Below are positions 34,490 through 64,000 of a stretch of 64,000 nt of DNA, one piece after another. Positions within the stretch are counted from its first letter, which is position 1. Each line of letters starts with the position of its first letter. A program made the position numbers and the translations under genes. The stretch is from NCBI GenBank assembly GCA_963822445.1, contig CAWGHO010000002.1, positions 384,001 to 448,000 of the forward strand. The letters run 5' to 3'. This stretch comes from an uncultured Acidobacteriota bacterium (GTDB taxonomy: Bacteria > Acidobacteriota > Thermoanaerobaculia > Gp7-AA8). A model generated the notes under the pieces. It had not been told where the DNA came from and did not search any database. It worked only from the letters and a program-made list of their open reading frames with translations.

Positions 34490-36163
34490 TCATCGCCTCC
34501 GTTTCCCCAGGAGCCAGAGCTCAGGCCGCCCATTGAGAACCTTCCCGGCGAAATCCAGCTGGAACGTCTCTCCGCCTGTCGTGGACACGACGATGTCCCT
34601 TTTCGTGTCGTTATCGAAATCGATGACCTCGAGGCGCCGGATTCGGGCCGACCTCGGGACGACCACACCTGCCCACACACGCTCGAGCTTCGAGTCCAGC
34701 AAAGCGACGGTGGCATGAGGGCGATCGGTGCCGAAGGTCGCACCGGGCTTGTCGTCGATACCGGCAACGATGATTTTGCGGGTGTGCCGCGAGGTTGGTC
34801 GGTCGATGACCATGGACTGCAAGTGGCCCACGTGGTCATACGAAAGAAGGCGTTGACCGTCGGCGGCGTAGAGGGAGACGCGGGAGGCCGAGCTTCCATC
34901 ACTCCACAAGGCGACGATCTCGAGGCCCTGGTCCTGACGCGACAGATCCTGAACGAGGAACTGCCGCAAGGTCGTGTCCTGCTGCGCGGACCAGCGCCGC
35001 AGACCTACCCGGTCGAACACGGTGATCGTGTTCGCGCCGACGACGACTTCCTGACTGCCATCCGCATCGAGATCCGCAACCTCCGCGCGTGTCACGAGGC
35101 CATCGACGCTGTGTTGCCAGAGCCGTTTACCGTTCGCCGAGAATGCCGCGACGGTCGAGCCATCGGTCACGGCGCGTGCGACATTGCCGGGCGGAGGCGG
35201 GGGAGGAGGACCATGGCAGATCGATAGCGGCATGTTCTGAGAGTCGCCGTCGATGCTGACCTGGGTAGCGGCGCGAATCGATGGATTGCGATTCGCGAGA
35301 ATCCACCTCCGGACATAGCGTTCCACGTAGGGTTTCAGCGTTCCGATCGTAACGGCGCCGCGCGTCAACGAGGCCTTACAGCTCATCCCGTTGATCACGG
35401 CTTTCGTGAACACCCCATTGCCATCACCTTCGTATGCATATCCGCCTGCCGTGGCAGCCGAGAACACGATCTGTCCATGCACGCGTCCCATCCTGCCGAT
35501 CATCGGCGCCCTGCCGGCGAGTGAGCCGCGCACATCAGGGATGCGGTTGCGACAGGTGTCGACGAGAAACAGCGATCGTTCCGCGTCCGATTTGCCGGCA
35601 ATGTCCAACAGCCGCGGCATCTGCAAGGCCGTTTCCGGATATCGAAAAAGAGAGCTCGAACCGAGAATGTATTGAACCCCGTCCTTCGTGAAGCCGTGTG
35701 TGGCGATCGACACGATGAGAATTCCGCCGGGGCCGGCGACGGCCGACTGTTTTTGCAGCAGGTCCAGAATGTCACTCGGCCCCGCCGGCTCGATTCTCGC
35801 CCCCGCTCGGACGAGCTCGTCGAGACGTCTTTTCGATGCTTCCTTTCTGGGCCGCCCCGACAGGGAGAGCACCACGCGATCCGGCGGCACGAGCAGTACT
35901 CGTGGATCGAGCGAGAACATATAAGCGAGATCCACCGCGTCGTCCGCCGCATATCGGACTTCGAGTGCCGGATCATTCGTGAATTTCGGCACGCCGATGA
36001 ACAGCGCGGCGGATTGAGCCGGATTGAATTTCGCCGGCTCGACCGGCGCCGCCTCGGGCACGAGTCGAACGCCGCGAAACAATCTCATTGCCACAGGCGA
36101 GACTGCCGCGGTCGTGACCAGGAGTGCTCCCAGTGCGACAACGAGCGGCTTCCAAAGCTTCAT
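34490..36163 (-). CDS. Caspase-family (peptidase C14) protein with N-terminal hydrophobic segment and C-terminal FG-GAP/propeller-like region
   Basis: ALFIGV, YAADDA, SIATHG (His), LVDTCR (Cys), GNGVFT; ADLDADGSQEV and DFDNDTKRDIV repeats; ATGA overlap with hxsC. Confidence 0.88.
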   Translation of the reverse strand: MKLWKPLVVALGALLVTTAAVSPVAMRLFRGVRLVPEAAPVEPAKFNPAQSAALFIGVPKFTNDPALEVRYAADDAVDLAYMFSLDPRVLLVPPDRVVLSLSGRPRKEASKRRLDELVRAGARIEPAGPSDILDLLQKQSAVAGPGGILIVSIATHGFTKDGVQYILGSSSLFRYPETALQMPRLLDIAGKSDAERSLFLVDTCRNRIPDVRGSLAGRAPMIGRMGRVHGQIVFSAATAGGYAYEGDGNGVFTKAVINGMSCKASLTRGAVTIGTLKPYVERYVRRWILANRNPSIRAATQVSIDGDSQNMPLSICHGPPPPPPPGNVARAVTDGSTVAAFSANGKRLWQHSVDGLVTRAEVADLDADGSQEVVVGANTITVFDRVGLRRWSAQQDTTLRQFLVQDLSRQDQGLEIVALWSDGSSASRVSLYAADGQRLLSYDHVGHLQSMVIDRPTSRHTRKIIVAGIDDKPGATFGTDRPHATVALLDSKLERVWAGVVVPRSARIRRLEVIDFDNDTKRDIVVSTTGGETFQLDFAGKVLNGRPELWLLGKRRR

Positions 36164-37314
36164 GCGATCCCATTCCCGTCGGAATCCAGCGGATGGATGC
36201 GCGCACTGCGGATCTTCGTTCCGGATTGAAAGAACCCTCCACACCGCTCGATCACGCCGCAGCCGTTGCACTCCGGGAGATACACATTTTTCCAATCGGA
36301 GATCGATTTGCGCGCCAGCGGCCAGAGCCGACGATCGAGAACGCAGAGCTGGTGGTTGTAAATCGACACGTTCATCCCTGCATCACGGAAGACATCACTG
36401 GCCGCGAGGAGCTCGCGCTGATAGTCGGCCGGATCGATCCAAAGCTCATCGAGATTTCGATGTACCAGGCCGAACATCTCCAGCCCCATGAGGGCGACGT
36501 GACATGCGAAGGGGAAATTGCGCGCGATGAACGCGGCCAGTTGGGGCAAGCGCGGAATGGAACGCGCGTGCAGGACGATCCGAATCTCGACGCGGACGCG
36601 GTGACGATCGAGGTTCTGCAATCCGATCACGGTCTGCTCGAATGCACCGGGCGCTTGCACGATGTGATCGTGAAGAGAATCAACGTCCGCATAAAGAGGA
36701 ATGCCGAGAACGAGATCCGGGTGATCGATTCGTCCGAGCTTTTCGGCGAAATGCCGATAGAAGAACAGGCGGCCGTTCGTCAGCACGTGAAGAGCGGTCG
36801 AGGGCAGGCGCTCTTTGCAGCGCGCGACGAGCTCGAGGAAGCCATCCCGAAAAAGCGTTGGCTCTCCCCCCGTGATCCCGAGCTCTTCCGTCGTCGGATC
36901 GATCAGGTCGATGAGGCGCAGGTGTTCCGCCAGACGATCGGAGTCGTCGATCGCTTTCGGGGGCTGTGAGCACATCAGGCAGAGGCTGTTGCACTGTTCG
37001 GTGACGAGAATGAAATTGTGCGGGGATCCGCGGCGATAGAGCGTCCGCACGAAGCCGTTCGGATCGACGGCCACGACGTCGCCGTCATCGAGATAGTCGA
37101 GCTGATGGAGACCGCTCGCCGTCGGAATTGCGGAAACGGAGGGTGCTTCTCCGAGCGCGAGAACGCCGAGGTAGCCATCGGGGTGACAAGGCAAAGCGCC
37201 GCCGCTGGCGAGCAGCCACGCATCGCCGCGGCCGGACGGCAGCGGCGAGCGTGCGACGCGCCCGATCAAAGTTCGATCGACATTCGTCACCCGGGCGTTC
37301 GCATGCAGCCTCAT
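36160..37314 (-). CDS. hxsC: His-Xaa-Ser system radical SAM maturase HxsC
   Basis: VTEQCNSLCLMCSQPP (CxxxCxxC), GITGGEPT, LTNGR, ARKSISDWKN, C-terminal CxxC...CGGFF; follows hxsB. Confidence 0.93.
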   Translation of the reverse strand: MRLHANARVTNVDRTLIGRVARSPLPSGRGDAWLLASGGALPCHPDGYLGVLALGEAPSVSAIPTASGLHQLDYLDDGDVVAVDPNGFVRTLYRRGSPHNFILVTEQCNSLCLMCSQPPKAIDDSDRLAEHLRLIDLIDPTTEELGITGGEPTLFRDGFLELVARCKERLPSTALHVLTNGRLFFYRHFAEKLGRIDHPDLVLGIPLYADVDSLHDHIVQAPGAFEQTVIGLQNLDRHRVRVEIRIVLHARSIPRLPQLAAFIARNFPFACHVALMGLEMFGLVHRNLDELWIDPADYQRELLAASDVFRDAGMNVSIYNHQLCVLDRRLWPLARKSISDWKNVYLPECNGCGVIERCGGFFQSGTKIRSARIHPLDSDGNGIA

Positions 37315-38756
37315 GCGACCTGCTCCCGCTGTAATGGCTCTTCGCGGATCCACGACCACAACACGCGTCGGGTGACCTCATCACGCTCGAGGAGCGAGAT
37401 CAGGTGTTTGATGATGGAGAAGTTCTTTTCGTGGAAATCGCTGGTGGGAATGACCGGCACGAGGTCGCCGGTGGTCGCATAGTGATGCACCGGATCGGCG
37501 CCGCACCAAGGCAGAAACGCACAATCGGAGCAGCCGGGAAACGATTCGGCAACCGACGCGGCAATGATCCTGCGGAGGGTCTCGCCTCCGAAGATCGCCT
37601 CGTACGAATCGCGATGGACGTTGCCGAGGCGGAAGCGCGTGTCGCCCATTGCTGCCAGCATGCGCGACTCGTCCGTGGGGTAGACGTCGCCATCATGGTT
37701 GTAGACGACGGCACCGATTCCGGCACCGGCGGGACTCTGCAGGTCGACGTAGCCGGTGGCGAACGGCGTCAGGATTCGCGTCAGGAGAAGCTGCGCATAG
37801 CTCTCGATCAGAAACGTGCCGTCGGCATTGAGTCGAATGATGTAGTCGAGCGCGCGGACATAAAACTCGAGGAACTCACGCATCGAGTAACCGGTCGTGC
37901 GCACGCTACGCAATGCGAAGCCGTAAGGGCTCAAAGGGCGCAGGAAAATCGACGAAAATCCGAGGCGGACGTATTCGTCGACGATTGCTTCCGGCGACTG
38001 GAGGGATGCACTGGTGGTCGTCATGAGCGCGGCAACGCGATCGTGACCGAGCACTTCCCGAGCGCGCCGGATTCCGTCGATCGTTCGCGCGTGGCTGTCG
38101 TTGCCGGGCCGGGGACGATTGGCATCATGCAGGGCCTGCGGTCCGTCGAGAGACGTCGACAGGAAGACGCCGTGCTCGCGGAAGAAATCCAGCATCTCTC
38201 CGTCGAGCAAGGCCAGGTTCGTCGTCACGACGAAATCGACGTCGCGGCCGGCCGCGTCCGCGCGCCTCCGGCCTTCCACCACGATCTGCCGGACGCGATC
38301 GAAGTGCAGCAGCGGCTCACCACCCTGCAGCTCGATCTTGAGCCGCGGCGCCGGCGAGCGAAACGCAAGGTCGAGCCCGCGCTCCGCGGTTTCCTCGCTC
38401 ATGTCGTAGCGCTTTTTGTCGACGCTCACCCGCGAGACCTGACAGTAGTGACACGAATGCTCGCAACGCAGCGACACGACGAAGATGTGCAGGCTCGTGA
38501 ACCCGTCGAGGAATGCCTTCTTCGTCCGATACTTCGCCGCCAGCAGCTCGAATGGCGCAAGACTGTTGCTGTCGAAGAGGAAGTGCTTGGCCTTCAGATC
38601 GAGATAGGCGTCCGAGTCCGGCGACAGGTCACGCTGGACGAACCGCGCGAGATCGTCCTTCGCCAGAAAGTGAAACTCCCCTGTTTCATTGACGACCAAC
38701 GTCCTTGTTTGATCGAAGCGCAGGAATCGGAAAGGCAAGAGACGATACGCGCTCAT
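37311..38756 (-). CDS. hxsB: His-Xaa-Ser system radical SAM/SPASM maturase HxsB
   Basis: YRLLPFRF, LHIFVVSLRCEHSCHYCQVS, KIELQGGEPLL, YVDLQSPAG, DESRMLA, CSDCAFLPWCGADPV. Confidence 0.95.
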   Translation of the reverse strand: MSAYRLLPFRFLRFDQTRTLVVNETGEFHFLAKDDLARFVQRDLSPDSDAYLDLKAKHFLFDSNSLAPFELLAAKYRTKKAFLDGFTSLHIFVVSLRCEHSCHYCQVSRVSVDKKRYDMSEETAERGLDLAFRSPAPRLKIELQGGEPLLHFDRVRQIVVEGRRRADAAGRDVDFVVTTNLALLDGEMLDFFREHGVFLSTSLDGPQALHDANRPRPGNDSHARTIDGIRRAREVLGHDRVAALMTTTSASLQSPEAIVDEYVRLGFSSIFLRPLSPYGFALRSVRTTGYSMREFLEFYVRALDYIIRLNADGTFLIESYAQLLLTRILTPFATGYVDLQSPAGAGIGAVVYNHDGDVYPTDESRMLAAMGDTRFRLGNVHRDSYEAIFGGETLRRIIAASVAESFPGCSDCAFLPWCGADPVHHYATTGDLVPVIPTSDFHEKNFSIIKHLISLLERDEVTRRVLWSWIREEPLQREQVA

Positions 38757-39088
38757 CCAACGATTCCTCGGACATCGACGTACTGGTCGCTCTCGATGTC
38801 GCTCCGATCGAGTAAATCTGCCTCGCAGAACGCCTGTGCCACGAGCAGTTCGCGAATGACTCGGGTCTCGTCCGCAACGATCGCGCGCAGGCGAAAATCC
38901 AGAAGCGCATTCGAAAACTGTCCGGCCAGATCGCGCAGGGAATCGCGCTCGTCGCGGGCCGCAAACTCGATCGCCAAACGACCCTCGCCGGCATGGCGAG
39001 GCTGCACGTGGCAGCGTGCCGTGAATGCATGACAGGCCCGCAACACCAGCTCGAGCGGATAGATCGCCAGATCGACGGTGATGGTCAC
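38753..39088 (-). CDS. hxsD: His-Xaa-Ser system protein HxsD
   Basis: GTG start overlapping the hxsA stop; IY....V..ACHAF, FSNALLDFRLR..V..ET..IRELLVAQAF; position between hxsA and hxsB. Confidence 0.88.
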   Translation of the reverse strand: MTITVDLAIYPLELVLRACHAFTARCHVQPRHAGEGRLAIEFAARDERDSLRDLAGQFSNALLDFRLRAIVADETRVIRELLVAQAFCEADLLDRSDIESDQYVDVRGIVG

Positions 39089-40125
39089 GGCTGACGCTCC
39101 ACGGTCACGTGGTCGAACGCCGCGGCCTCGGTGGCCGGCGCGGGGGTCACGGTGCCGGCGCTCAACGCGATGCGCATTTCCGTCAACGGGATGCCTGCTG
39201 TTTCGACGTACTGCGGAAACCAATTCCTCCCGTCGGTGCTCGTTTCCCACACCGCTACCGGGGCGGCCGCAGCAACCTTGCTCGTGCGCAGGCGAAGAAA
39301 CCGATGTGCCGTCGCGCTATAGGCGAGCTTCTTCGAGGCCACGCGACCCTTCGTGTGGCTTTCGATGGAGAGATGACCGCTCTCGACTCGGAAGCCGATC
39401 CAGTTCCCGGAATCGATCGCCGCCGCGAAGATTGTCACCGCCCCTCGTGCCGGACGCCGGAGCTCCACAGCAACACTGGACGTTTTCAAATCGAACGATT
39501 GCGTCGAGACATACCCGCTGAAATGCGAGCCTCGCTGCAGCACCGGCGGCGCAACTCTCAATACACTCCCCATCTGCTCTGTCGTCACGTTCGGATCGAA
39601 CGTCTCGAGAGGCGTTGCGAGGACGCCGATGGTCCACCGCTCCGCGACCCGCTCGGTGGTCGCGAATTCCTCACTCAGGAGCGTCTCCGCTTTCGGTTCA
39701 GGAGGCCGCGGTTCGACGACTTTCGGGCGCGGCGGTTCCGGGGCGGGCGTAGTGGGCGTGCTCCGAGGCGGCGCGGGCGACGAGGAAAAGTGCGAGGAGT
39801 GTGCGCCCGAATAATGCGAGCTGGAGCTGTGCGATCGATGGGAGCTGTGGGACCGATGAGAACTATGCGAGCGATGTTGCGCAAAGCGGATGACGAACGA
39901 GCTCTCCGCGCGCTCGAGCACGTACCTGCCCTTGAATTTCCGCACAGTGGCCTCAGGCGCCAGGGTCGGCGCCACAGGAACGCGCGGCTGCGCACCGGCG
40001 CCAGCGCCGGCCTGCGTGGCCATTCCAAGGAGGCTCGCGCTCAATGCCACGCGTGCCGTGAGCCGGCGCAACGGAAGCACATCGAGCAGTTTCCATAGAG
40101 CGTTCTTCCAATCCGAGTCCGACAT
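39085..40125 (-). CDS. hxsA: His-Xaa-Ser repeat protein (HxsA-type precursor) fused to a Pro-rich linker and a C-terminal ConA/lectin-like beta-sandwich
   Basis: AQHRSHSSHRSHSSHRSHSSSSHYSGAHSSHFSS (nine HxS triplets); hydrophobic N-terminal segment; C-terminal FLRLR...WETSTDGRNW...FDHV. Confidence 0.88.
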   Translation of the reverse strand: MSDSDWKNALWKLLDVLPLRRLTARVALSASLLGMATQAGAGAGAQPRVPVAPTLAPEATVRKFKGRYVLERAESSFVIRFAQHRSHSSHRSHSSHRSHSSSSHYSGAHSSHFSSSPAPPRSTPTTPAPEPPRPKVVEPRPPEPKAETLLSEEFATTERVAERWTIGVLATPLETFDPNVTTEQMGSVLRVAPPVLQRGSHFSGYVSTQSFDLKTSSVAVELRRPARGAVTIFAAAIDSGNWIGFRVESGHLSIESHTKGRVASKKLAYSATAHRFLRLRTSKVAAAAPVAVWETSTDGRNWFPQYVETAGIPLTEMRIALSAGTVTPAPATEAAAFDHVTVERQP

Positions 40126-56663: not shown

Positions 56664-57391
56664 CGCGCCGCCGTCATCACTCCGCCGCCCTGCCGGCCGA
56701 ACGCCATGATGTATAGCGGCGCCGTTCCGACATGCGGCGCAAAGCGGCCCTGCTCGTCGTCGATCAACGCCTCGACGTCGTACGTTCCTACGGGTGCTTT
56801 CTTGGACAGCGTCAGCTCGACCGTCGACTCGACCACGCCGCCACCCTTGGGAACCACGAACTCATTGGGACCGGCGCCGAACACGTAGTCCTCGCCGTAC
56901 TTCAGACCGCGAAAGACCCGCACCTTGATGTTCTCGTTCGGATCCGGTCCGAGCACGAGATAGCGGACGTATAGCTTCGCGGTCTGGCCCGGCTTCGGAT
57001 TCGCGGGCTGGAAGTGCACCTCTTCAATGCGCGCGACGTAACCCTGCGAGCTGTCGTAGCTGGCCTGGCGCACCGCGAGATCGCGGCCAGCGAAGATCTG
57101 ATCCTGTCGCTTGCCGACCGCGAATCCGGCGATCGCGCCGGCGACGGCACCAGCAAACGCGTGCTTCACGATCTGCTCGTGATCCATTCCGGCGACGCCC
57201 GCGCCGAGAGCCCCGATCGCGCCGCCGATCAGCGCACTAACGATTGCCTTTCGCTTGGCGCGGCTTTGCAGCGCCATCCAATCCTTGATGTTGGCGGGCT
57301 TCGACACCGCCCCGGCATTCGGCGTGGGTGCGGTCGCGCAGGCGGTGAAGAGCAGCGAGCAAACGAGCAGTGACGCAATTCCATTTCTCAT
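56660..57391 (-). CDS. Lipoprotein with glycine-zipper and C-terminal beta domain
   Basis: Lipobox FTAC; ALIGGAIGALGAG and AGAVAGAIAGFAVG. Confidence 0.8.
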   Translation of the reverse strand: MRNGIASLLVCSLLFTACATAPTPNAGAVSKPANIKDWMALQSRAKRKAIVSALIGGAIGALGAGVAGMDHEQIVKHAFAGAVAGAIAGFAVGKRQDQIFAGRDLAVRQASYDSSQGYVARIEEVHFQPANPKPGQTAKLYVRYLVLGPDPNENIKVRVFRGLKYGEDYVFGAGPNEFVVPKGGGVVESTVELTLSKKAPVGTYDVEALIDDEQGRFAPHVGTAPLYIMAFGRQGGGVMTAAR

Positions 57392-57401
57392 GTCGAGTAC
57401 C

Positions 57402-59042
57402 TCAGAGTTGGTTCCTCGGCGGTGACGAGGGTTTCCGGATGGTGTTGGTGTTCGGTCCGACCTGTGTGTCCTTGAAGGCGTTCTTGCGGCCCTCTTTCGC
57501 CAGTTGAAGGAGCGCGCGGGCCCGGGTGACGATCGATTCCGGAGCACGCGGGTCATCGCCGAGGTTTTTCGCGAAGCGCTCGGCTTCGGGCCAGCGCTCT
57601 TCGCGCAGGTCTTCCTCGATCTCGGAGAGACGTGAGGCCCACACGGCGTCCTGCGCTTTGCGCGTCTCTGCCGCAACGCGCGCGACGGTCACCCGCGAGC
57701 GGAGAGCTGCGATCTGTTCGCGCTCTTCACTGAGGTCTTGCGCGCGGCGCTGTGCCAACTCCGCGATGCGATCGAGCTCCTCGATCGCAATGTCGAATCG
57801 CTCGAAGGCGAGGTCGTTTTCGGCGCGCGCGAGCCCTGTGAGGATCGCCTTGCGCAGCGCATCGAGCTCGTGGCGCTTCGCCGCTCCGTCGTCCACCGGA
57901 TCGCGCTCGACCGCTGCGAACGGCGTCGTCTTGACCGGCTCGCTCTTGCGAGCCTCGGGCTGCTGCGGGGGCGGCGGCAGTGCCAGGCCGGGCGTTTCGA
58001 CGAAGACCGGTGCGGGGATGGAGGTCGCGATGCGCGTTGTCGATGGCGCCGCTACTGGAAACGGCTGTTCGCGGAGCCGATCGCGAACCACGAACGACGC
58101 GGCGGCGAGGCCTCCTGCGATGGCAAATCCCGCGACCACCGCCGGTTTTCGCGATGGCGGCTCCTGAACGACGACCGGCAGGACTTCGGTAGTCGCATCC
58201 ACCTCGATTGGTGGCGGCGCGGAGACGAAAAAGCCGACGGCACCTTCGCGCAACGCCTCACCGAATGCGGCTGCCGAAGGGAATCGCTCGTCCGGATCAT
58301 GTCGCAGCGCGATCCGGACGGCCTCGCACACCCCGATGGGCAAGTCGGGCGCGAACGTGCGCAATTCGGGCGGCCCGACTACCCGCTCATGGATCTGTGC
58401 GAGATATTCACGCGCTTCGAAGGCCTGACGCCCGGCCACCATCCGATACAGGACGAGCGCGGCGCTGTAGATGTCGGTGCGGCGATCGAGGCTCCTGGCC
58501 TGCAACTGTTCCGGCGACATGTACGGCGGGCTGCCGATCAGCTGCAGCGAGGCGGTGATCCGCGGCGTTTCGCTGAGCAGCGCGATCCCGAAATCGGCGA
58601 GCTTCACGCGGCTGCCGCAGACCATGACGTTCGACGGCTTTACGTCGCGATGAATGATCTTCTCGCCGTGCACATACTCGAGCGCGTCGAGCACTTGCTC
58701 GAAGATCGGCAGCGCTTCTTCGAGTGTCAGCCGGGCGCGCGTCGAACGATCGAGGAGTGCGGCCAGCGTCTCGCCTTCGACGTACTCCATGGCGATGAAC
58801 AGCTCGTCGTGCTCGTCGATGAGATCGTAGACGGCGACGACGTTCGGATGCTGCAGGCGGGCCTGGGCCTGCGCTTCGCGCAGGAGACGTTGACGAAGTG
58901 CGGCATCTCCGGCGCTCTTCGGCAGCAGCGTCTTGATGGCGGCTGCGCGCCCGAGTGTCTCGTGGCGGCCTTTGTAGACGAGACCCATCCCGCCTTCCGC
59001 CAGAACCCTCTCAATCCGGTAAGACCCGATTCGCTCTCTCAC
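57402..59042 (-). CDS. Hanks-type Ser/Thr protein kinase with TM and helical extracytoplasmic domain
   Basis: EGGMGLVY, AIK, HPNVV, HRDVKPSN, DFG, YMSPEQ, DIYS; TM AVVAGFAIAGGLAAASFVV. Confidence 0.95.
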   Translation of the reverse strand: MRERIGSYRIERVLAEGGMGLVYKGRHETLGRAAAIKTLLPKSAGDAALRQRLLREAQAQARLQHPNVVAVYDLIDEHDELFIAMEYVEGETLAALLDRSTRARLTLEEALPIFEQVLDALEYVHGEKIIHRDVKPSNVMVCGSRVKLADFGIALLSETPRITASLQLIGSPPYMSPEQLQARSLDRRTDIYSAALVLYRMVAGRQAFEAREYLAQIHERVVGPPELRTFAPDLPIGVCEAVRIALRHDPDERFPSAAAFGEALREGAVGFFVSAPPPIEVDATTEVLPVVVQEPPSRKPAVVAGFAIAGGLAAASFVVRDRLREQPFPVAAPSTTRIATSIPAPVFVETPGLALPPPPQQPEARKSEPVKTTPFAAVERDPVDDGAAKRHELDALRKAILTGLARAENDLAFERFDIAIEELDRIAELAQRRAQDLSEEREQIAALRSRVTVARVAAETRKAQDAVWASRLSEIEEDLREERWPEAERFAKNLGDDPRAPESIVTRARALLQLAKEGRKNAFKDTQVGPNTNTIRKPSSPPRNQL

Positions 59043-59078: not shown

Positions 59079-60488
59079 TCACGATTTGGTTTTTCTGAAC
59101 GAGATGAATGCGGCGATCACGGTCACGCCGGCCAGCAGCAATAACGCGATTCCACCCGAGACGACCGGTGACGCCGCGTTCGGCAGGGTGGCAATCCGCG
59201 CTTCCCGGTACCGCTTGCCGCAGTCCTGGCTCGGTCCAGGCGCGACTGAAAAACCGGACCAGCGGTCGCGGAAAACATCGAGTCGATGCCCGTCCACGTC
59301 GACGGTGGAAAGGCGAATGTCCGTCCAATAACGTCCGGCCAGATCGCATTCGACGTCGCGCACGCTGCGGAATCCGCCCGCACCGCCGGAAGGATCCCGT
59401 TCCATGGCGATGGCCGTCCGGTCACCGCCGGGCTTTGCCACGATCACCTCGAGCGCGAGTGCGTACTCCCGGAATTCCTCGAAGGCGCGGCCGCTCCCGT
59501 CGGCCACACGATAGATGACCGGCACCCGATCGCATTGACTCAGCGACTCCCCTTGACGCGGACGCAGCAACGTCCCGCGCGGAAAAAACTGTTGCGACAG
59601 AATCCGCACGCGGGCGTCGGCGCGCGACTTCCGGATGATCCATTTGCCCGCCGACGGCCGCGGAACGACCAGCGTGGTCAGGACGTCGCCAAGCGGCACC
59701 GACTCGATGCCGTCGGCTCCGGCGCGAATCGGTCTTGCGCTGCCGGCAGGGAACACCTCGACCGTGACGGCCGGTGAAGGGCGGAAAATGTCGAACACGA
59801 TGAGATCGAGATACGGAGGCACGAGCAGCACATCCACGCCATGGCCGGTTTTGACAGCGGCGCTTTCGACGGTTTGTGTGCCGGCAAGGCGGCCGATCAC
59901 ACCGTGCGCCGATGCCAGCAGCCGATCGGGTCTGCCGGCCGCCAGTTCCACGCGTGCGAGCTCGCGCCAGAACGCGTGCGCTCGCCGATCGGTCAGAAGA
60001 ACATCCAAGGTGATCCCGGAACGCGCGATGAAACGCGACAGGTCCGCGCGATACGCATTCATATCGCGGCCGCGCATGTACGGCGCACCGTCGGTGAACA
60101 GTACGATCGCTCGGCGCCGTTCCGGTCTCACCGGCAGTGCAAGAAAAAGCCGCTCCGCGGCGATGAGCGCGGCAAGTACGTCGGTCTCACCGCGATCCTC
60201 GTAGCCGAGTGCGTCGAGCCGCGGTCCGAGCCGGCGTGCGGAGGTGAACGGCAGGTCGACTGTCGGCGCCGATCCGAATCGAATCACCGCCAGTCGATGC
60301 TCGAGTTGGTAGGCGGCCGCATTGCGCTCGAGCATGTCGGCCGTCATCCGCAGAAGAAGGACCTCACCGCGAGGATGGCGGGCCATGCTTTTCGAGCAAT
60401 CGAGCAGCACCACCAGATCCAGTCCTGCATCCGCTGAAGCCGCGATACTGACGGAAAGCAACAGAGCGAGCGCGAAGAAGCGGGTCAC
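59079..60488 (-). CDS. Exported vWA domain protein with C-terminal TM anchor
   Basis: Signal peptide; LVVLLDCSKSM, TDVLAAL, IVLFTDG; C-terminal TM and basic tail. Confidence 0.88.
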   Translation of the reverse strand: MTRFFALALLLSVSIAASADAGLDLVVLLDCSKSMARHPRGEVLLLRMTADMLERNAAAYQLEHRLAVIRFGSAPTVDLPFTSARRLGPRLDALGYEDRGETDVLAALIAAERLFLALPVRPERRRAIVLFTDGAPYMRGRDMNAYRADLSRFIARSGITLDVLLTDRRAHAFWRELARVELAAGRPDRLLASAHGVIGRLAGTQTVESAAVKTGHGVDVLLVPPYLDLIVFDIFRPSPAVTVEVFPAGSARPIRAGADGIESVPLGDVLTTLVVPRPSAGKWIIRKSRADARVRILSQQFFPRGTLLRPRQGESLSQCDRVPVIYRVADGSGRAFEEFREYALALEVIVAKPGGDRTAIAMERDPSGGAGGFRSVRDVECDLAGRYWTDIRLSTVDVDGHRLDVFRDRWSGFSVAPGPSQDCGKRYREARIATLPNAASPVVSGGIALLLLAGVTVIAAFISFRKTKS

Positions 60489-60535: not shown

Positions 60536-61093
60536 CTAGCGTTCCAGTTGACGGCGCACGTCCGCAATCTCCACATCGATGCGATCGATTGCGGCTTCGT
60601 TTCCTTCGAGCTCGGATCGCTTCGCGTCGAGGGCTCGCTGTGCGGCGGTGATCTCGGCCTTTACGTTCTGCACGTGCACGTCGGCTTCGTGCAGCTTATC
60701 GGTCACACTCGCTACTTCACGCGCAAAAGAGGAATTGAGCAACGCGACCGCACAGATCGCCGCGCCGGCCCTCGTGAGATTGGAGACTTCTCCGGAGAAC
60801 GCGTTGCCATCGCCCCAGGTGCTGCGCGCGGCGCGAATGCACTCCGCCGCCATGCGGTGATTCTCGATGAATCGATGCACCTCGGTGTTGTACGTCGCGA
60901 GGCCACCGTTCAACGAATCGAGCCGCTGCTGCGCTTCGCGCATCGCGTTCTGCCGCACCGTAAGGCGCTCGGCCAGATCGGTGCGTTGCCGCTCGAGCGC
61001 CGCCAACCGCGCCTGTGATCGCTTCGTTTCACTGTCGCAGCCGACAACGAGTGCCGCCAGCGCAACGATGCACGCCGTCCTGCGCACGGTCAC
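60536..61093 (-). CDS. Coiled-coil lipoprotein
   Basis: GTG overlapping the CHAT stop; lipobox LVVGC; heptad-rich helices around a Cys pair. Confidence 0.75.
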   Translation of the reverse strand: MTVRRTACIVALAALVVGCDSETKRSQARLAALERQRTDLAERLTVRQNAMREAQQRLDSLNGGLATYNTEVHRFIENHRMAAECIRAARSTWGDGNAFSGEVSNLTRAGAAICAVALLNSSFAREVASVTDKLHEADVHVQNVKAEITAAQRALDAKRSELEGNEAAIDRIDVEIADVRRQLER

Positions 61094-64000
61094 TGCGGGC
61101 GCTTCCACCGTCCCCGCGGATCTCCCGCGAGCGTAAACGCCGCCCAATACCTGGGGTCGGCGTACCGTTTGTCCTCCTTGGTCGCCAGTTGTGCCTGGCG
61201 CAAAGCCTCGGCCGCGGAAGCACCGGCGGCCAGCCGTCGATAGAACTCCTGCATCAATCCGGCAGAGGCCGCGTCGTCGATGTTCCAAAGCGTCGAGATC
61301 ACTCCGGGCGTGCCTGCATAGAGCAGCGCGCGTGTCAGTCCGACGATCTCATCGCCGCCGCTGCGCGCGCCGGCCGCCGACTGACAGGCCGAAAGCACCA
61401 CCAGGTTCACGCCCGTGAGATCGAGGGACGAGAGGATCTCGTCGACGGTCAAACGGCCATCATGTGTCTCGTCCCTGGCCAACGCGATCCGGCTGAATAG
61501 AGGATTCTTCGGATCGTAAACACCATGCGCCGCGAGATGGACCAGATCGAATTTGCCGTGCGCGTCGTAGAGCAGCGACTCACGAGCCGCGGCGCCGAGA
61601 AATGGCGTCGCGCCGAGAGTTCGAGCGATGCCGGTCGCTTCCTCCGCCGCGCCGGGCAGTTTGCTCATTGCGCTGTCCGGATCGCCCAGGATCAGAGCTC
61701 CGCCGTCGAGCGGCGATTCCTTGGCGCGCAGGAACCGCAATGCGCTCGCGCTCGGCGCGTACGTCAATGTGTAGTCGTCGATCAGATAGCGCTGGGTGTC
61801 CGGGTTGCGCAACGCCGCAAACGGTACGTAGTGCAAAACCCCATGCGGCACGATGACCAGCTTGCGGTGACGGATCGAATCGAGCAGCGGCGCGATCAGT
61901 CGCGCGAACGCGTCCCCGGACGTCGCGCCGGGTTCGCACGCACCGACCAGGCGGACTCCACGTACATCGACGGGCGGTCCGAACTGTGCTGCCCAACAGA
62001 CGATTTGTTGGAGACCGCTCTGGTCGACCGGCAGGGCCACACGGCGGGTGGCATCCCGGTCGAGCACCCACGCGTGCACGACCTTCTCTGAAACGTAGTA
62101 GCTGATGAGTGTGGTGTCGGGCGCCAACTCCTTCCGGACCTCTTCGATGCGAAGCGGCTCGATGTTCGTGAGCGACTCGTACTCCGGACTCGAAACCTTC
62201 ACCCGCGTCAGCACAATGCGGTAGCGCTGGCGCGCGCGCTGGAGATCGGCGGTGAGGCGAACGGCACTCTCGCCCTGCGCTAGCTGGGCCTCCCGCTCAC
62301 GCGCCGCAATCTCCGTGCGAAGGCTTTCCGCCTCACGGACGAGATGCGGTTCGGCGGTGCGCGTCGCGTTCAAGCGGTGATTGCCGACCATCTGCAGAAA
62401 CGCACGCGTGCGGGCGCGCTCCGCCTGCGCGAAGGCTTCCTCGGAACGTCCGGCCTTCACCAGCATTTCGATGAGCAGGTCGTAAAACGCGCGCCGGTTA
62501 CTGCCGAGGTAGCCCGAGAGCATCTCTTCGACCTTGATGTTGCTGGCCGATGCCTCTAGCACGCTCACGGCCTGCTCGACGTAGTTGATCCCCTCGTCCA
62601 GTTTCCCGTCATTCCAGTGACTCGCCCCGATCATGGCCAGAAGACCGGCCTTGATATCGCCGCTCGGATTCGTTTCGAGAGCCTGCTGCCACAGGGCGCG
62701 TGCACCCTCGCGATCCCCCTGATCGAAGTGAGTCTTTCCTTTGAAGAAGAGCGGCAGGGCCTGAAGCATGGGCAGTGCACCCTGGATCGCTTTTCCTTGT
62801 CCGCCCACAGGATCGCGTATCGTCTGCAAGGGAACCTTTCCCATCAGCAAGGCCTGTATCTCCGATGATTCGGTCATCGTTTCCAACGCCTGACCGACCT
62901 CGCTGACGGAGCCCTGGCGAGCCATGACCGCCTTCGCATTTCTGACGGCATCGACCATCGTGCTCGCCAACCTGAACCCGCTGCGGCTCGCCAACACGCA
63001 GGCGTTGTCGAGTGCCGATGTCGCGTCGTCGTGCATGTCGAGCTGCATCTGCACCTCGGCGAGCAGAATCCACATCGGCGCCTCGATATACGTTTCACCG
63101 AGCCCCTGATAGAGCTCGATGGCCTTTTCGAGGTGGCGCGCGGCGCTGCCGAACGACCCGCGGAACATGTGCAGCGTCCCGAGATCCGCATGGACCGATG
63201 CCTCGCGGAAGGCATCGTTGCTGTCCATCGCCAGAGCGAGCACGTCTTCGTAGAGCGCAAACGCGTGGTCGTAGCGGCCGGCCTTTTGCAGCAACTCTGC
63301 TCGATCTTCGAGAATCGCCCGTTCACGCCTGGCGTTCCTCGCGGCGCGCACGCTCTCGAGCGCCCGATCGTTCCACGCCAGCGCTTCGTCGATCCGCCCG
63401 GTGAGCATCTCCAGCTCCGCGAGCTTGCCGAGAATTGCCGGATCTTCTCCGGTATTTCCTGTGAGCACGCGCATGATGTCGCTTCCACGAAGCGCCTCGA
63501 GATAGCTCTCTCGAGCTTCATCGAGGCGCCACTGACGCCGGCGGAGATCTCCGAAATGGACGTCGACCGTGGCATTGACGATCCCGCCGTAAGCCGACAT
63601 GGCGTCTTTCGCCAGCGTCAGTTGCGACTCGGCTTTCTCCAGTTCCCCTGCTTCCATCAGAACGGCGCCGTATGCGTCGCGATTGAGAAACTCCATCGTG
63701 CGCAGCACTACCGGCTTGAGGATCTCCGGATAGTTGGCCAGCGGCCCCAGCATCTCGAAGGACATGCCGGACGTCGGGCCGAGCGCTTTCAGAGTCGCCA
63801 GTGAAAAGCGCGAACCCGGGGCCGCCGCTTTGTGCAGCATGGCCAGCACTCGCTCGTACGTGGCCATGGCGTCGGTCAGACGATCTTCGGACCTCTCGAA
63901 CGTGGCCAGCGCGATGAGACCGATCGCCGCGCTGAAGTGATCGTCGAGGGCGACGAACTTCGCCGTCGCCTCCTCGATCTCCGACCGCGCCGCAACTCCG
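61090..64000 (-). CDS. TPR-CHAT domain protein (caspase-like peptidase), 5' end beyond the window
   Basis: TPR repeats; AERAR, IVPHGVLHYVPFAAL, HLAAHG (His), VVLSACQS (Cys), STLWNIDD, YWAAF; the frame stays open to the window edge. Confidence 0.95.
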   Translation of the reverse strand, partial: GVAARSEIEEATAKFVALDDHFSAAIGLIALATFERSEDRLTDAMATYERVLAMLHKAAAPGSRFSLATLKALGPTSGMSFEMLGPLANYPEILKPVVLRTMEFLNRDAYGAVLMEAGELEKAESQLTLAKDAMSAYGGIVNATVDVHFGDLRRRQWRLDEARESYLEALRGSDIMRVLTGNTGEDPAILGKLAELEMLTGRIDEALAWNDRALESVRAARNARRERAILEDRAELLQKAGRYDHAFALYEDVLALAMDSNDAFREASVHADLGTLHMFRGSFGSAARHLEKAIELYQGLGETYIEAPMWILLAEVQMQLDMHDDATSALDNACVLASRSGFRLASTMVDAVRNAKAVMARQGSVSEVGQALETMTESSEIQALLMGKVPLQTIRDPVGGQGKAIQGALPMLQALPLFFKGKTHFDQGDREGARALWQQALETNPSGDIKAGLLAMIGASHWNDGKLDEGINYVEQAVSVLEASASNIKVEEMLSGYLGSNRRAFYDLLIEMLVKAGRSEEAFAQAERARTRAFLQMVGNHRLNATRTAEPHLVREAESLRTEIAAREREAQLAQGESAVRLTADLQRARQRYRIVLTRVKVSSPEYESLTNIEPLRIEEVRKELAPDTTLISYYVSEKVVHAWVLDRDATRRVALPVDQSGLQQIVCWAAQFGPPVDVRGVRLVGACEPGATSGDAFARLIAPLLDSIRHRKLVIVPHGVLHYVPFAALRNPDTQRYLIDDYTLTYAPSASALRFLRAKESPLDGGALILGDPDSAMSKLPGAAEEATGIARTLGATPFLGAAARESLLYDAHGKFDLVHLAAHGVYDPKNPLFSRIALARDETHDGRLTVDEILSSLDLTGVNLVVLSACQSAAGARSGGDEIVGLTRALLYAGTPGVISTLWNIDDAASAGLMQEFYRRLAAGASAAEALRQAQLATKEDKRYADPRYWAAFTLAGDPRGRWKRPQ

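What the first reader, a model, noticed from the sequence alone, without database searches (positions are those of the whole stretch)
34490..64000. Candidate new system: 20-gene operon joining a tubulin-like GTPase, a private Hsp70/GrpE/DnaJ-finger set and a His-Xaa-Ser radical SAM cassette, with a caspase-fold protease at each visible end
Seen: 20 consecutive minus-strand genes with ten start/stop overlaps (ATGA, GTGA, TGATG) and all other gaps under 50 nt, running from the CHAT gene to the caspase gene. The hxsA-D-B-C block is coupled directly to its neighbours (10-nt gap upstream, ATGA overlap downstream). Established: FtsZ-like-1/Tubulin_2 proteins occur in operons with vWA proteins and Ser/Thr kinases and were proposed to remodel membranes (Makarova and Koonin); His-Xaa-Ser systems (TIGRFAM HxsA-D) are paired radical SAM systems of unknown function; CHAT and C14 proteases are typical of bacterial conflict and cell-death systems. 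Inference: these modules act as one envelope-spanning machine (surface sensing by vWA/lipoproteins/kinase, chaperone-assisted tubulin assembly, modified His-rich protein, proteolytic output), perhaps in defence or cell-cell interaction. I know of no description of this combination.
Basis: partly seen in the sequence, partly recalled or inferred. Interest (0 to 1): 0.92.

Follow-up and report, generated by a model that had tools for sequence, protein, structure and literature searches.

The report
Three defence modules parked side by side
The long gene row is real, but it is a chain of separately inherited units (protease genes, a tubulin/Hsp70 conflict system and a known anti-phage His-Xaa-Ser cassette that carries a new membrane partner), not one new machine.

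Summary
There are 20 intact minus-strand genes with ten start/stop overlaps. The row continues past the window into a caspase gene, an unknown gene and a second CHAT gene.

The "one machine" reading is only partly supported. Comparison with congeners and with a phylum-wide draw splits the row into modules:
- **P:** CHAT, unknown, caspase.
- **T:** 12 genes, namely vWA, Ser/Thr kinase, lipoproteins, two Hsp70-like proteins, GrpE, vWA-like and Tubulin_2.
- **H:** the Cys-rich "DnaJ-finger" membrane protein plus HxsA-D-B-C.
- **Casp:** a terminal caspase.

T is syntenic in 6 of 6 genus genomes that carry it. H follows T in only 3 of them. H lies away from T in 7 of 11 genus genomes that have it. 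In 401 Acidobacteriota genomes, tubulin-positive and HxsB-positive genomes overlap only in this one.

T resembles the tubulin, HSP70/GrpE and kinase "themes" of Kaur et al. 2020, but no P-loop GTPase was found. HXS is a published anti-phage system (Li et al. 2026).

The new part is that the DnaJ-finger protein belongs to Hxs, not to Hsp70. A model supports its binding to HxsA (score 0.71, best control 0.00).

The parts
61090..64000 (-). TPR-CHAT protease gene (1045 aa; continues to window 64227, outside the window). Variable: present in G020 and G009, absent from G003 and G024.
   Evidence: Pfam CHAT 250.8 bits plus TPR families; full extent from L001; synteny; hydrophobic N-terminus.
60536..61093 (-). 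Small coiled-coil lipoprotein (185 aa, Cys in a lipobox-like VVGC). It travels with the TPR-CHAT gene.
   Evidence: Only coiled-coil-type weak hits; N-terminus; found with CHAT-TPR in G020 and G009.
59079..60488 (-). Module T, gene 1: exported vWA protein with a C-terminal TM segment (469 aa; MIDAS DCSKS).
   Evidence: VWA_2 39.4 bits, VWA 35.3; TM-like segments at 1 and 438; DxSxS; syntenic in 6 of 6 T loci.
57402..59042 (-). Module T: Ser/Thr kinase with a TM segment near residue 300 and a 230-aa C-terminal part.
   Evidence: Pkinase 162.5 bits; HRDVKPSN, DFG and SPE motifs; TM; generic PD-T4-6 kinase hits in PADLOC.
56660..57391 (-). Module T: lipoprotein with a glycine zipper (243 aa).
   Evidence: Gly-zipper_YMGG E 8.4e-4, below cut-off; lipobox-like FTAC; syntenic 6 of 6.
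55770..56663 (-). Module T: 297-aa protein of no family with a C-terminal TM segment.
   Evidence: No Pfam or NCBIfam family; TM at 272; syntenic 6 of 6.
52936..55770 (-). Module T: zinc ribbon, Ig-like region and Hsp70 (944 aa).
   Evidence: HSP70 113.8 bits; DnaK chains E 5.6e-21 from residue 361; IDFGTTNS motif; 35% identical orthologue in G128.
51512..52939 (-).
   Evidence: No sequence family. AF2 model pLDDT 70.9 from a 7-row alignment. Foldseek best hits are DnaK chains, E 2.5e-15, TMq 0.42. Atlas features point to Hsp70 clusters, 0.95.
50562..51515 (-). Module T: GrpE-like protein anchored by an N-terminal TM segment (317 aa).
   Evidence: GrpE 26.6 bits against cut-off 25.8, residues 216-314; TM at 1 followed by RRRR; GrpE-like hits in G128 too.
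49290..50552 (-). Module T: zinc-ribbon protein with an unassigned C-terminal 300 aa (420 aa).
   Evidence: Zn_Ribbon_1 E 0.0026 only; 2 CxxC; conserved in G128 at 28%. The beta-propeller reading was not tested.
47584..49293 (-). Module T: exported vWA-like protein with a TM near 419 and a Pro-rich tail (569 aa).
   Evidence: No Pfam family; DNSGS MIDAS-like motif after a signal-like N-terminus; conserved in G128 and G207.
47195..47566 (-). Module T: small membrane protein with three TM segments (123 aa).
   Evidence: No family; TM-like segments; syntenic 6 of 6.
43232..47182 (-). Module T: 1316-aa tubulin-like GTPase (Tubulin_2 at 24-394, long helical middle, four C-terminal zinc ribbons).
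   Evidence: Tubulin_2 210.1 bits, DZR 27.1; GGTGSG at 197, eight C-terminal CxxC; orthologues at 70-81% in 5 congeners and 41% in G128.
42106..43080 (-). Module T, last gene: TM protein with a CarboxypepD_reg-like domain (324 aa with this start).
   Evidence: CarboxypepD_reg 27.4 bits, below cut-off 32.3; syntenic 6 of 6; two MAG contigs end just past it.
41939..42105 (.). Seam between module T and module H: spacer of at least 122 nt here, about 1.1-1.2 kb in G003 and G020.
   Evidence: Junction table; spacer translations; coordinates. No promoter-like or terminator-like site was reported in it, and that scan does not cover non-sigma-70 promoters.
40136..41938 (-). Module H, gene 1: Cys-rich (DnaJ-CRD-like) protein with three TM segments and a helical C-terminal domain. 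I propose it as a fifth Hxs component that holds HxsA.
   Evidence: Six CxxC pairs, four of them CxxCxGxG, and no HPD; 12 Cys invariant in 39 sequences; family of 53 proteins in 5.8 billion; directly upstream of hxsA in 10 of 10 genus genomes; complex model 0.71 against 0.00.
39085..40125 (-). Module H: HxsA (346 aa) with a leader, nine H-x-S triplets (residues 84-114), a Pro-rich linker and a ConA-like jelly-roll domain (about 147-346).
   Evidence: TIGR03979 22.7 bits, below cut-off; repeats invariant in 10 sequences; AF2 pLDDT above 90 for the C-terminal domain; Foldseek GH16/lectin folds, E 6e-7, TMt 0.6-0.67.
38753..39088 (-). Module H: HxsD (111 aa).
   Evidence: TIGR03976 60.2 bits against cut-off 50.
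37311..38756 (-). Module H: HxsB radical SAM/SPASM maturase (481 aa).
   Evidence: TIGR03978 599.7 bits against cut-off 370; Radical_SAM, SPASM.
36160..37314 (-). Module H: HxsC radical SAM maturase (384 aa).
   Evidence: TIGR03977 383.1 bits against cut-off 267.9.
34490..36163 (-). Exported caspase-like protease with a FG-GAP/PQQ-like C-terminal region (557 aa). It ATGA-overlaps hxsC.
   Evidence: NF047832 37.6 bits, below cut-off 140; weak FG-GAP and PQQ_2 hits; THG155 and DTC202, signal-like N-terminus. It follows HxsC only in G000, G003, G020 and G014. Paralogues sit inside module P in G009, G024 and G108.

Best explanation
The row is a composite conflict (defence) island built from units that are inherited separately.

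**Module T (12 genes).** This is an uncharacterised, envelope-spanning tubulin/Hsp70 conflict system of the kind outlined by Makarova and Koonin (2010) and Kaur et al. (2020).
- Two exported vWA-type proteins, a transmembrane Ser/Thr kinase and lipoproteins face outward.
- Inside sit a ZnR-Ig-Hsp70, a second divergent Hsp70-like protein, a membrane-anchored GrpE and a zinc-ribbon protein, next to a 1316-aa tubulin-like GTPase.
- Inferred, not shown: an envelope signal is passed inward (phosphorylation, vWA-peptide binding). The Hsp70/GrpE cycle then gates GTP-dependent assembly of the tubulin-like protein at the membrane.

**Module H (5 genes).** This is a variant of the HXS anti-phage system. 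In E. coli that system matures HxsA with two radical SAM enzymes plus HxsD, and blocks phage DNA entry from the periplasm.
- Here HxsA carries a ConA-like domain instead of a peptidoglycan-binding domain.
- A genus-restricted membrane protein (cytoplasmic DnaJ-type Cys-rich domain, three TM segments, outward helical domain) is predicted to bind that ConA-like domain. It would hold the effector at the outer face of the inner membrane.

**Module P and the caspase genes.** Module P (CHAT, unknown, caspase), the TPR-CHAT/lipoprotein pair and the terminal caspase are exported or membrane-anchored clan-CD proteases. They recur next to T and next to H. They are most likely proteolytic effectors or activators.

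**Linkage.** T and H are physically joined only in a small subclade of one genus.
For: **T is a unit.** The same 12 genes in the same order occur in 6 of 6 genus genomes with the long tubulin. A 6-gene core (Hsp70, Hsp70b, GrpE, ZnR, vWA2, tubulin) occurs in G128 of another family at 26-39% identity. Tubulin, vWA2-like and Hsp70 hits also occur in G207.

**H is a unit.**
- The DnaJ-finger gene is directly followed by hxsA in 10 of 10 genus genomes that have it.
- H sits between an AcrB/HlyD efflux pair and an AraC/DJ-1 regulator in G005, and next to a PLD gene in G011.
- The long tubulin was not found in G005, G011, G436, G438, G010 or G432.

**T and H are separable.**
- H follows T in G000, G003 and G020.
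- G014 is unresolved because of contig ends.
- In G009 the T contig runs 9 kb past the last T gene without hxs, and H lies on another contig.
- G024 has T and no HxsB.
- In the phylum draw, 9 of 401 genomes have tubulin-like hits and 8 of 401 have HxsB over the cut-off. Only G000 has both.
- Seven other Acidobacteriota hxs cassettes have no DnaJ-finger, tubulin or Hsp70 hit nearby.
- The seam spacer is at least 122 nt here and about 1.1-1.2 kb in G003 and G020.

**HXS function.** Taken from PMC13128918.

**DnaJ-finger protein and HxsA.** Complex model ipSAE 0.71, 0.70 and 0.72 against a best control of 0.00. That mark was reached by 58 of 80 solved complexes and 2 of 110 mismatched pairs. My own alignments were used, so these counts hold only roughly. 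The runs agree in at least 28% of contacts, and partner pLDDT is at least 67. The interface is residues 565-608 of the 613-aa form with HxsA 258-309.

**Folds.** Hsp70b is DnaK-like. The HxsA C-terminal domain is ConA/GH16-like.

**P is autonomous.** A second copy lies at G000:C3:1247626-1253582, next to TonB-receptor and DnaE-type genes.
Against: - In three species whose proteins are only 52-81% identical, the order P-T-H-caspase is fully kept, on one strand. This is more than a fleeting juxtaposition and may reflect co-regulation.
- In this genome the seam is short (122-167 nt), and no terminator-like site was found in it.
- Within the genus, 5 of the 6 T-bearing genomes also carry hxs somewhere. 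Kin are not independent, so this is weak.
- Protease genes of module P or the caspase type lie next to H in 7 of 18 hxs loci examined, in three different arrangements. This hints at a real P-H link that my module picture does not explain.
- No function of module T has been tested anywhere. Its defence role rests on analogy and on neighbours.
- The membrane topology of the DnaJ-finger protein comes from my own hydrophobicity scan and the positive-inside rule, not from a dedicated predictor.
- The complex model shows the model's confidence, not binding.
- The hxs trees do not resolve whether the unlinked states are ancestral or derived.
Confidence: 0.7

Rival explanations
1. All 20 or more genes form one co-transcribed envelope-spanning machine. 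Surface sensing, chaperone-assisted tubulin assembly, a modified His-rich protein and proteolytic output depend on one another.
For: Same strand, ten overlaps and short gaps. The order P-T-H-caspase is kept in G000, G003 and G020 at 52-81% protein identity. hxsC and the caspase gene overlap by ATGA. Protease genes recur beside hxs in G438, G108 and G009 as well.
Against: - H stands without T in G005, G011, G436, G438, G432 and G010.
- T stands without H in G024, and unlinked to H in G009.
- The distant T orthologue cluster in G128 has no hxs.
- There is no overlap in the phylum draw apart from G000.
- The spacer at the seam is 1.1-1.2 kb in G003 and G020.
- HXS works as four genes on its own in E. 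coli (PMC13128918).
Confidence: 0.15
2. Module T is not a defence system. It is a membrane-remodelling or cytoskeletal apparatus, as Makarova and Koonin proposed in 2010. The proteases and hxs are merely neighbours in a variable region.
For: The FtsZl1 operons with vWA, kinases and membrane proteins were read this way (PMC2875224, section 6). Most T proteins are membrane-associated. No known defence model matches the T core.
Against: - T is accessory: 6 of 35 genus genomes and about 2 full-length relatives in 400 other phylum genomes.
- It is flanked by caspase/CHAT genes in all 5 T loci whose upstream side could be read.
- Its parts match the themes of the conflict systems of Kaur et al..
- Patchy distribution and protease neighbours fit conflict systems better than a housekeeping cytoskeleton.
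Confidence: 0.15
3. Proteases are the hub. Module P and the caspase paralogues form a proteolytic cascade that services whichever cargo lies beside it (T, H or both), for example by cleaving the HxsA leader or T components. On this view P-H and P-T are the true functional pairs.
For: - P is directly upstream of H, co-directional, without T, in G438.
- P is convergent with a 4-gene hxs in G108, another genus.
- A CHAT fragment is convergent with H in G009.
- P is upstream of T in G000, G003, G020, G024 and G009.
- G000 gave only 3 Peptidase_C14 matches and 11 CHAT matches in 6 Mb, so chance adjacency is unlikely.
- HxsA cleavage in E. coli is non-canonical and its protease is unknown (PMC13128918, section 8).
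Against: - H has no protease hit in the fetched flanks in G005, G011, G436, G432 and G010, nor in 6 of 7 other phylum loci.
- P also stands alone in G000 contig C3.
- E. coli HXS needs no caspase.
- Several of the adjacencies may descend from one ancestral arrangement.
Confidence: 0.2

Closest known systems
HXS anti-phage system (HxsA-D; Li et al., Nat Commun 2026, PMC13128918; TIGR03976-03979)
   Same: HxsB, HxsC and HxsD score above the curated cut-offs. HxsA has the His-Xaa-Ser repeat block, invariant across 10 Acidobacteriota sequences. The four genes are translationally coupled.
   Different: - The gene order is A-D-B-C here. The paper reports D-B-C-A in 99.6% of systems.
- The phylum is Acidobacteriota. 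The paper finds 99.7% in Pseudomonadota.
- HxsA carries a ConA/GH16-like jelly-roll domain instead of a peptidoglycan-binding domain, and it is below the TIGR03979 cut-off.
- A fifth gene (Cys-rich three-TM protein) is fixed upstream of hxsA in this genus (10 of 10). It is absent from 7 other Acidobacteriota cassettes.
GAP1-N2-type DO-GTPase conflict systems (Kaur, Burroughs, Iyer, Aravind, eLife 2020, PMC7159879)
   Same: The variable 'themes' described there are all present (section 29):
- Tubulin with vWA proteins, one of them membrane-bound.
- HSP70 plus GrpE plus a second HSP70-only protein.
- An active kinase with a zinc ribbon or TM segment and a standalone vWA.

The membrane-proximal layout and zinc ribbons also match.
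   Different: - The paper calls the three themes non-overlapping. Here they sit in one operon.
- No Walker A motif was found in any of the 23 proteins, so no DO-GTPase was found. GAP1 could not be tested.
- The phylum differs: the paper lists Actinobacteria, Firmicutes, Planctomycetes, Verrucomicrobia and Chloroflexi.
- No PP2C phosphatase was seen.
FtsZl1 operons (Makarova and Koonin, Biol Direct 2010, PMC2875224)
   Same: A tubulin-superfamily protein of the Tubulin_2 type with vWA proteins, Ser/Thr kinases and many membrane proteins. Conventional cell-division FtsZ is not replaced (section 6).
   Different: - The paper does not mention Hsp70, GrpE, caspases or radical SAM (0 occurrences each).
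- Its frequent P-loop GTPase and OmpA components were not found here.
- In the paper the DnaJ Cys-rich domain is fused to the GTPase. Here a Cys-rich protein belongs to the Hxs unit.
- That PF13809 equals FtsZl1 is my recollection, not a call.
Caspase/CHAT protease-effector defence modules (Kaur et al. 2020; preprint PMC12642450)
   Same: Clan-CD proteases next to conflict systems, with weak matches to the EACC1-associated caspase model (56.8 and 37.6 bits). DnaK-like partners of protease modules are mentioned in the preprint (passages).
   Different: - Both scores are far below the cut-off of 140.
- No EACC1 was identified, and the 379-aa partner has no family.
- These proteases have signal-like or TM N-termini, so they probably act outside the cytoplasm.

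Membership tests
HXS (His-Xaa-Ser) system | HxsB radical SAM/SPASM maturase (TIGR03978) | tested here: met
   599.7 bits against cut-off 370, full length 1-466.
HXS (His-Xaa-Ser) system | HxsC radical SAM maturase (TIGR03977) | tested here: met
   383.1 bits against cut-off 267.9.
HXS (His-Xaa-Ser) system | HxsD (TIGR03976) | tested here: met
   60.2 bits against cut-off 50.
HXS (His-Xaa-Ser) system | HxsA with His-Xaa-Ser repeats (TIGR03979) | tested here: inconclusive
   The model scores 22.7 bits against cut-off 121.65. Nine consecutive H-x-S triplets are present and invariant in 10 sequences.
HXS (His-Xaa-Ser) system | HxsA peptidoglycan-binding domain, required in E. coli (PMC13128918, section 8) | tested here: not met
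   No such Pfam hit. The C-terminal domain models as a ConA/GH16-like jelly roll.
HXS (His-Xaa-Ser) system | Gene order D-B-C-A (99.6% of systems in the paper) | tested here: not met
   The order here is A-D-B-C. In 7 other Acidobacteriota cassettes, an HxS-rich ORF lies upstream in 5, downstream of HxsC in 1 (G186), and was not seen in 1 (G190).
HXS (His-Xaa-Ser) system | Anti-phage activity by blocking DNA entry | not testable with these tools
   This needs a phage challenge. It is known only for the E. coli system.
DO-GTPase / GAP1-N2 conflict systems | One or two TRAFAC-clade DO-GTPases | tested here: not met
   No [AG]xxxxGK[ST] motif in 22 of 23 proteins. The one match is in the hydrophobic N-terminus of the second CHAT protein. 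There is no GTPase family hit. A motif scan can miss divergent P-loops.
DO-GTPase / GAP1-N2 conflict systems | GAP1 protein (GAP1-N2, M and C domains) | not testable with these tools
   No profile of GAP1 is available in the libraries offered. The proteins without a family (297 aa, and 420 aa with a zinc ribbon) were not compared with GAP1.
DO-GTPase / GAP1-N2 conflict systems | Variable themes: tubulin+vWA; HSP70+GrpE+HSP70-only; kinase+vWA | tested here: met
   Tubulin_2, VWA_2, HSP70, GrpE and Pkinase. The second Hsp70-like protein is shown by fold. No PP2C was found.
FtsZl1 / Tubulin_2 operons | Tubulin_2 (PF13809) protein | tested here: met
   210.1 bits against cut-off 27, positions 1-355 of 356; GGTGSG at 197.
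FtsZl1 / Tubulin_2 operons | vWA protein and Ser/Thr kinase in the operon | tested here: met
FtsZl1 / Tubulin_2 operons | Diverged P-loop GTPase and OmpA-family protein (frequent, not universal) | tested here: not met
   No Walker A. Only a weak YiaD Gly-zipper/OmpA-like lipoprotein hit at 19.4 bits against 175.
DnaJ/Hsp40 co-chaperone | J domain with an HPD motif | tested here: not met
   No HPD and no DnaJ Pfam hit in the 600-aa protein. Only the CxxCxGxG zinc-finger motifs resemble DnaJ.
EACC1-caspase systems | EACC1-associated caspase (NF047832) with an EACC1 partner | tested here: not met
   56.8 and 37.6 bits against cut-off 140. The 379-aa neighbour has no family, and the Atlas gave no usable hit.

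The most novel reading that the evidence does not exclude
In the G000/G003/G020 subclade, the protease, tubulin/Hsp70 and Hxs units have been welded into one layered envelope-immunity locus, read largely from one transcript.
- The HxsA gate would be held at the inner membrane by the new Cys-rich three-TM protein and would be the first line.
- The vWA/kinase sensors with the Hsp70-gated tubulin polymer would be the second line.
- The exported caspases would process HxsA or T components.

A narrower and more likely part of this claim is that the Cys-rich membrane protein is a true fifth Hxs component (an 'HxsE') that replaces peptidoglycan anchoring. I put that part alone at about 0.6.
Probability: 0.15. 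Interest if true: 0.8.

Novelty: new variant of a known kind. Interest (0 to 1): 0.55.

Why it matters
**Hxs.** HXS was characterised only in 2026, and its authors state that HxsA export, cleavage and localisation need unknown factors. A lineage in which HxsA swaps its peptidoglycan anchor for a lectin-like domain, and acquires a dedicated membrane partner, gives a concrete candidate for such a factor. It is also a natural experiment on how the effector is positioned.

**Module T.** It merges, in one operon and with no GTPase found, three themes that Kaur et al. described as non-overlapping. This makes it a compact candidate for the first experimental test of what bacterial tubulin/Hsp70 conflict systems do.

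Tried and rejected
- **Expression.** No RNA holder was listed for window 35500-45000, so co-transcription could not be examined.
- **Empty-site test for an island.** The two flank proteins (window 24732-27863 and L001 13961-16171) were sought in five well-assembled congeners. The left one was not found in any. The right one matched at only 29-30% in one genome. The test says nothing.
- **Promoter and terminator scan, 33500-48000.** It found 0 promoter-like sites (1.8 expected) and 12 terminator-like sites (10.4 expected), none in the seam. It is uninformative for this phylum.
- **Rfam.** Window, L006 and L010 gave only one tRNA. The conserved DNA in the G003/G020 spacer therefore has no RNA family.
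- **Hsp70b by sequence.** BLASTP against Hsp70 (E 0.028) and PDB phmmer (0 hits) failed. The relation is seen only by fold.
- **The 379-aa protein of module P.** Pfam, NCBIfam and the Atlas gave nothing.
- **The 46-aa zinc-ribbon ORF.** It lies in the G003/G020 spacer and was found nowhere else among the fetched loci or in G000. It is not a regular Hxs component.
- **The search for related loci.** With the single tubulin protein it reached only three close loci.
- **Rows dropped from counts.** G415 (HxsB-like, 283 bits) and G428 (239 bits), both below the cut-off, are left out of the count of phylum hxs cassettes. G415 was fetched and G428 was not. G010's HxsB fragment (354.9 bits, below cut-off, at a contig end) is counted as module H through its DnaJ-finger/HxsA pair.
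- **Closed supplements.** Additional files 5 and 6 of PMC2875224 and Figure 1-source data 1 of PMC7159879 could not be seen. They may list tubulin+Hsp70 operons without a GTPase, or Acidobacteriota examples, which would lower the novelty of module T.
- **Literature searches for the hxs plus tubulin/Hsp70 combination.** Searches found no paper describing it.
- **Unpublished genomes.** G002 and G030 enter only the tallies (21 of 41; 7 of 41 over cut-off). No locus-level claim rests on them.

Full report
**What is in the window.** Between 34490 and 64000 there are 20 intact ORFs on the minus strand.
- With the start codons that orthologues support, nine junctions overlap by 4 nt and one by 1 nt. 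Seven gaps are 9-47 nt.
- Two gaps are larger: 151 nt after the tubulin gene and at least 122 nt before the DnaJ-finger gene.
- Family searches confirm CHAT+TPR, vWA, a Ser/Thr kinase, Hsp70, GrpE (just above its cut-off), Tubulin_2 with C-terminal zinc ribbons, and HxsB, HxsC and HxsD above their curated cut-offs.
- HxsA is below the model cut-off but carries nine consecutive His-Xaa-Ser triplets.
- The 'DnaJ finger' is a motif-level call: six CxxC pairs, four of them CxxCxGxG. It has no HPD motif and no DnaJ family hit.
- The terminal 'caspase' is supported only by a sub-threshold NCBIfam hit and by His/Cys motifs.
- PADLOC recognises nothing but generic kinases.

**The row is longer than the window.** The window is G000:C2:384001-448000.
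- The CHAT gene continues to window 64227 and ATGA-overlaps a 737-aa Peptidase_C14 gene.
- After a 472-nt gap come a 379-aa unknown gene and a 1202-aa CHAT gene.
- I call these three genes module P.

**Who carries it.** Record titles and source names place close relatives in Acidobacteriota/Thermoanaerobaculia MAGs.
- In the genus (35 genomes including G000), the long tubulin occurs in 6 and the DnaJ-finger protein in 10.
- In a draw of 401 genomes of the phylum, tubulin-like matches (E<=1e-10) occur in 9 and HxsB over the cut-off in 8. Only G000 has both.
- Both units are accessory.

**Synteny.** I ran tblastn with the 23 proteins of the extended row against the fetched loci. The results were:
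- **Module T.** The 12 genes from the first vWA to the TM-CarboxypepD_reg gene are collinear in all 6 genus genomes with the long tubulin (G000, G003, G020, G024, G009, G014).
- **Deep core of T.** In G128, from another family and with tubulin 39-41% identical, a core of Hsp70, Hsp70b, GrpE, ZnR protein, vWA2 and tubulin is kept. No hxs, DnaJ-finger or caspase hit occurs on that 38.5-kb contig. G207 keeps tubulin, vWA2-like and Hsp70 hits.
- **Module H.** The DnaJ-finger gene is immediately followed by hxsA-D-B-C in 10 of 10 genus genomes that have it. In G010 only the start of hxsA is seen before the contig ends.
- **T-H linkage.** H directly follows T in G000, G003 and G020.
  - In G014 the T contig ends 635 nt past the last T gene. 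The hxs contig ends about 530 nt upstream of the matched part of hxsA. The DnaJ-finger gene was not found in that assembly. This case is unresolved.
  - In G009 the T contig runs on for 9 kb without hxs, and H lies on a separate 8.9-kb contig.
  - G024 has T but no HxsB.
- **H away from T.** In G005 module H lies between an AcrB/HlyD efflux pair and an AraC/DJ-1 regulator. In G011 it lies beside a PLD-like gene. G436 and G432 show no hit to any other query in the flanks. In G438 module P lies directly upstream of H, co-directional, with no T.
- **Other Acidobacteriota.** Seven hxs cassettes with HxsB over the cut-off have no DnaJ-finger, tubulin or Hsp70 hit nearby. In G108 the four-gene cassette is convergent with a module P.
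- **Terminal caspase.** It follows hxsC only in G000, G003, G020 and G014. Paralogues of it lie inside module P in G009, G024 and G108.

**The seam.** That 10-nt gap lies inside module H. The break is one gene upstream.
- The spacer is at least 122 nt here and about 1.1-1.2 kb in G003 and G020. There it holds a small zinc-ribbon ORF found nowhere else among my loci.
- Two MAG contigs break just past the last T gene.
- Simple promoter and terminator scans are uninformative.
- No RNA data could be found.

**Trees.**
- Tubulin and Hsp70 leave G024 and G009 unresolved at the base. G003+G020 are supported as a pair (92/96 and 94/94). The Hsp70 tree groups G000, G014, G003 and G020 at 80/82, drawn open.
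- HxsB of the genus is one clade (100/99) with G009 outside the rest. G000, G005, G011, G014 and G003+G020 are unresolved.
- Linked and unlinked H loci are therefore close kin. The linked state is confined to a shallow group, and the direction of change is not resolved.

**What the unknown proteins are.**
- The 475-aa protein has no sequence family. Its AF2 model has mean pLDDT 70.9 from a shallow 7-row alignment. The model matches DnaK structures over both the nucleotide-binding and beta-sandwich parts, with E 2.5e-15 and a modest TM of 0.42, as expected for a multi-domain chain. The Atlas also points to Hsp70 clusters. Module T therefore encodes two Hsp70-like proteins and a membrane-anchored GrpE.
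- No Walker A motif occurs in any plausible position in the 23 proteins. The DO-GTPase that defines the Kaur et al. systems was not found.
- The HxsA C-terminal domain (about 147-346, pLDDT above 90) is a ConA/GH16-like jelly roll. It is not the peptidoglycan-binding domain that is essential in E. coli HxsA.

**The DnaJ-finger protein.**
- Its family is tiny: 53 proteins among 5.8 billion, all unnamed or 'hypothetical'. Twelve Cys are invariant in 39 aligned members.
- My hydrophobicity scan and the positive-inside rule suggest a cytoplasmic Cys-rich N-terminal half, three TM segments and an outward C-terminal helical domain. This is inference.
- A complex prediction with HxsA passed the tool's mark, with scores of 0.71, 0.70 and 0.72 against a best control of 0.00. 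That mark was reached by 58 of 80 solved complexes and 2 of 110 mismatched pairs. My own alignments were used, so the counts hold only roughly.
- The runs agree in at least 28% of contacts, and partner pLDDT is at least 67. The interface lies between the last helices of the membrane protein (565-608 of the 613-aa form) and the HxsA jelly roll (258-309).
- This supports binding and does not show it. It fits a tethering role that would replace peptidoglycan anchoring. Li et al. write that HxsA export and cleavage are non-canonical and probably need further factors (sections 8 and 11).

**Proteases.**
- G000 gave 3 Peptidase_C14 matches and 11 CHAT matches in 6 Mb.
- A second full copy of module P stands among unrelated genes on contig C3. 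P is therefore an autonomous unit.
- P or its paralogues lie upstream of T in all 5 T loci whose upstream side is assembled.
- A caspase/CHAT gene lies beside H in 7 of 18 hxs loci, in three arrangements. Shared ancestry explains part of this, so I keep a protease-hub rival at 0.2.

**Comparison with what is known.**
- HXS is a published anti-phage system. The cassette here is a variant in gene order, effector domain and an added fifth gene.
- Module T matches the content of the tubulin, HSP70/GrpE/HSP70-only and kinase/vWA themes of the GAP1-N2 DO-GTPase systems, and the FtsZl1 operons. It combines themes that the paper calls non-overlapping, and the defining GTPase was not found.
- I found no paper joining hxs to tubulin/Hsp70 clusters.
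- The supplements that list the published neighbourhoods were closed.

**Verdict.** The interpretation as one new system is not supported. The best reading is a composite conflict island of known kinds, with two new variants:
- a tubulin/two-Hsp70/GrpE/vWA/kinase operon in which no GTPase was found;
- a five-gene Hxs cassette with a dedicated membrane partner.

Functional coupling in the small subclade where the units are joined remains possible but unproven.

Noticed in passing
window 27870-27943 (+) and 28000-38000: A tRNA gene (65.1 bits) lies just before a stretch of lower G+C (0.59-0.62 against 0.63-0.67 elsewhere). That stretch holds two large ORFs with no clear family (861 and 505 aa), a truncated periplasmic-binding-protein ORF and a glyoxalase gene. 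This may be the edge of a genomic island.
   Followed up: partly
L001 2224-9579 (= window 64224-71579, outside the window): The row continues with a Peptidase_C14 gene (ATGA overlap with the CHAT gene), a 379-aa unknown gene and a second CHAT gene (module P).
   Followed up: yes
G000:C3:1247626-1253582: A second full copy of module P (CHAT 39%, unknown 45%, caspase 50% identical). It stands next to TonB-receptor, DnaE-type polymerase and asparagine-synthase genes, with no tubulin or hxs nearby.
   Followed up: partly
G003:C2:1120001-1140000 (L005): Directly beside the T-H row, G003 has a further tubulin-like gene about 915 aa long (30% identical N-terminal domain), another module P copy and another caspase paralogue. 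Tubulin_2 genes of about 913-960 aa are found in many genus genomes.
   Followed up: no
G020:C40:40835-46850 (L023 10835-16850): A second, divergent hxs-like cassette in G020: HxsB 40% identical, over the TIGR03978 cut-off at 503 bits, with several further radical SAM hits and an HxsD-like hit. It is far from the tubulin cluster.
   Followed up: no
G003 L006 about 10833-10970; G020 L010 about 15498-15635: A conserved 46-aa zinc-ribbon ORF (80% identical between the two) lies in the 1.1-1.2 kb spacer between modules T and H. It is absent from G000 and from all other fetched loci.
   Followed up: yes
L024 5025-9467 (G128:C26): In the distant cluster, the Hsp70 and Hsp70b regions lie in one 1480-aa open frame, which may be a fusion. 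Two GrpE-like regions and a second Hsp70-like region are present.
   Followed up: no
L003 and L004 ends; G014:C808: Two independent MAG contigs end within about 0.6-1.1 kb after the last module T gene. That is the seam where the gene content differs between species.
   Followed up: partly
G024 L013 1433-2212; G009 L020/L021 (joined 22673-23455): G024 and G009 have an extra ORF of about 260 aa between the tubulin gene and the TM-CarboxypepD_reg gene. G000 has only a 151-nt gap there.
   Followed up: no
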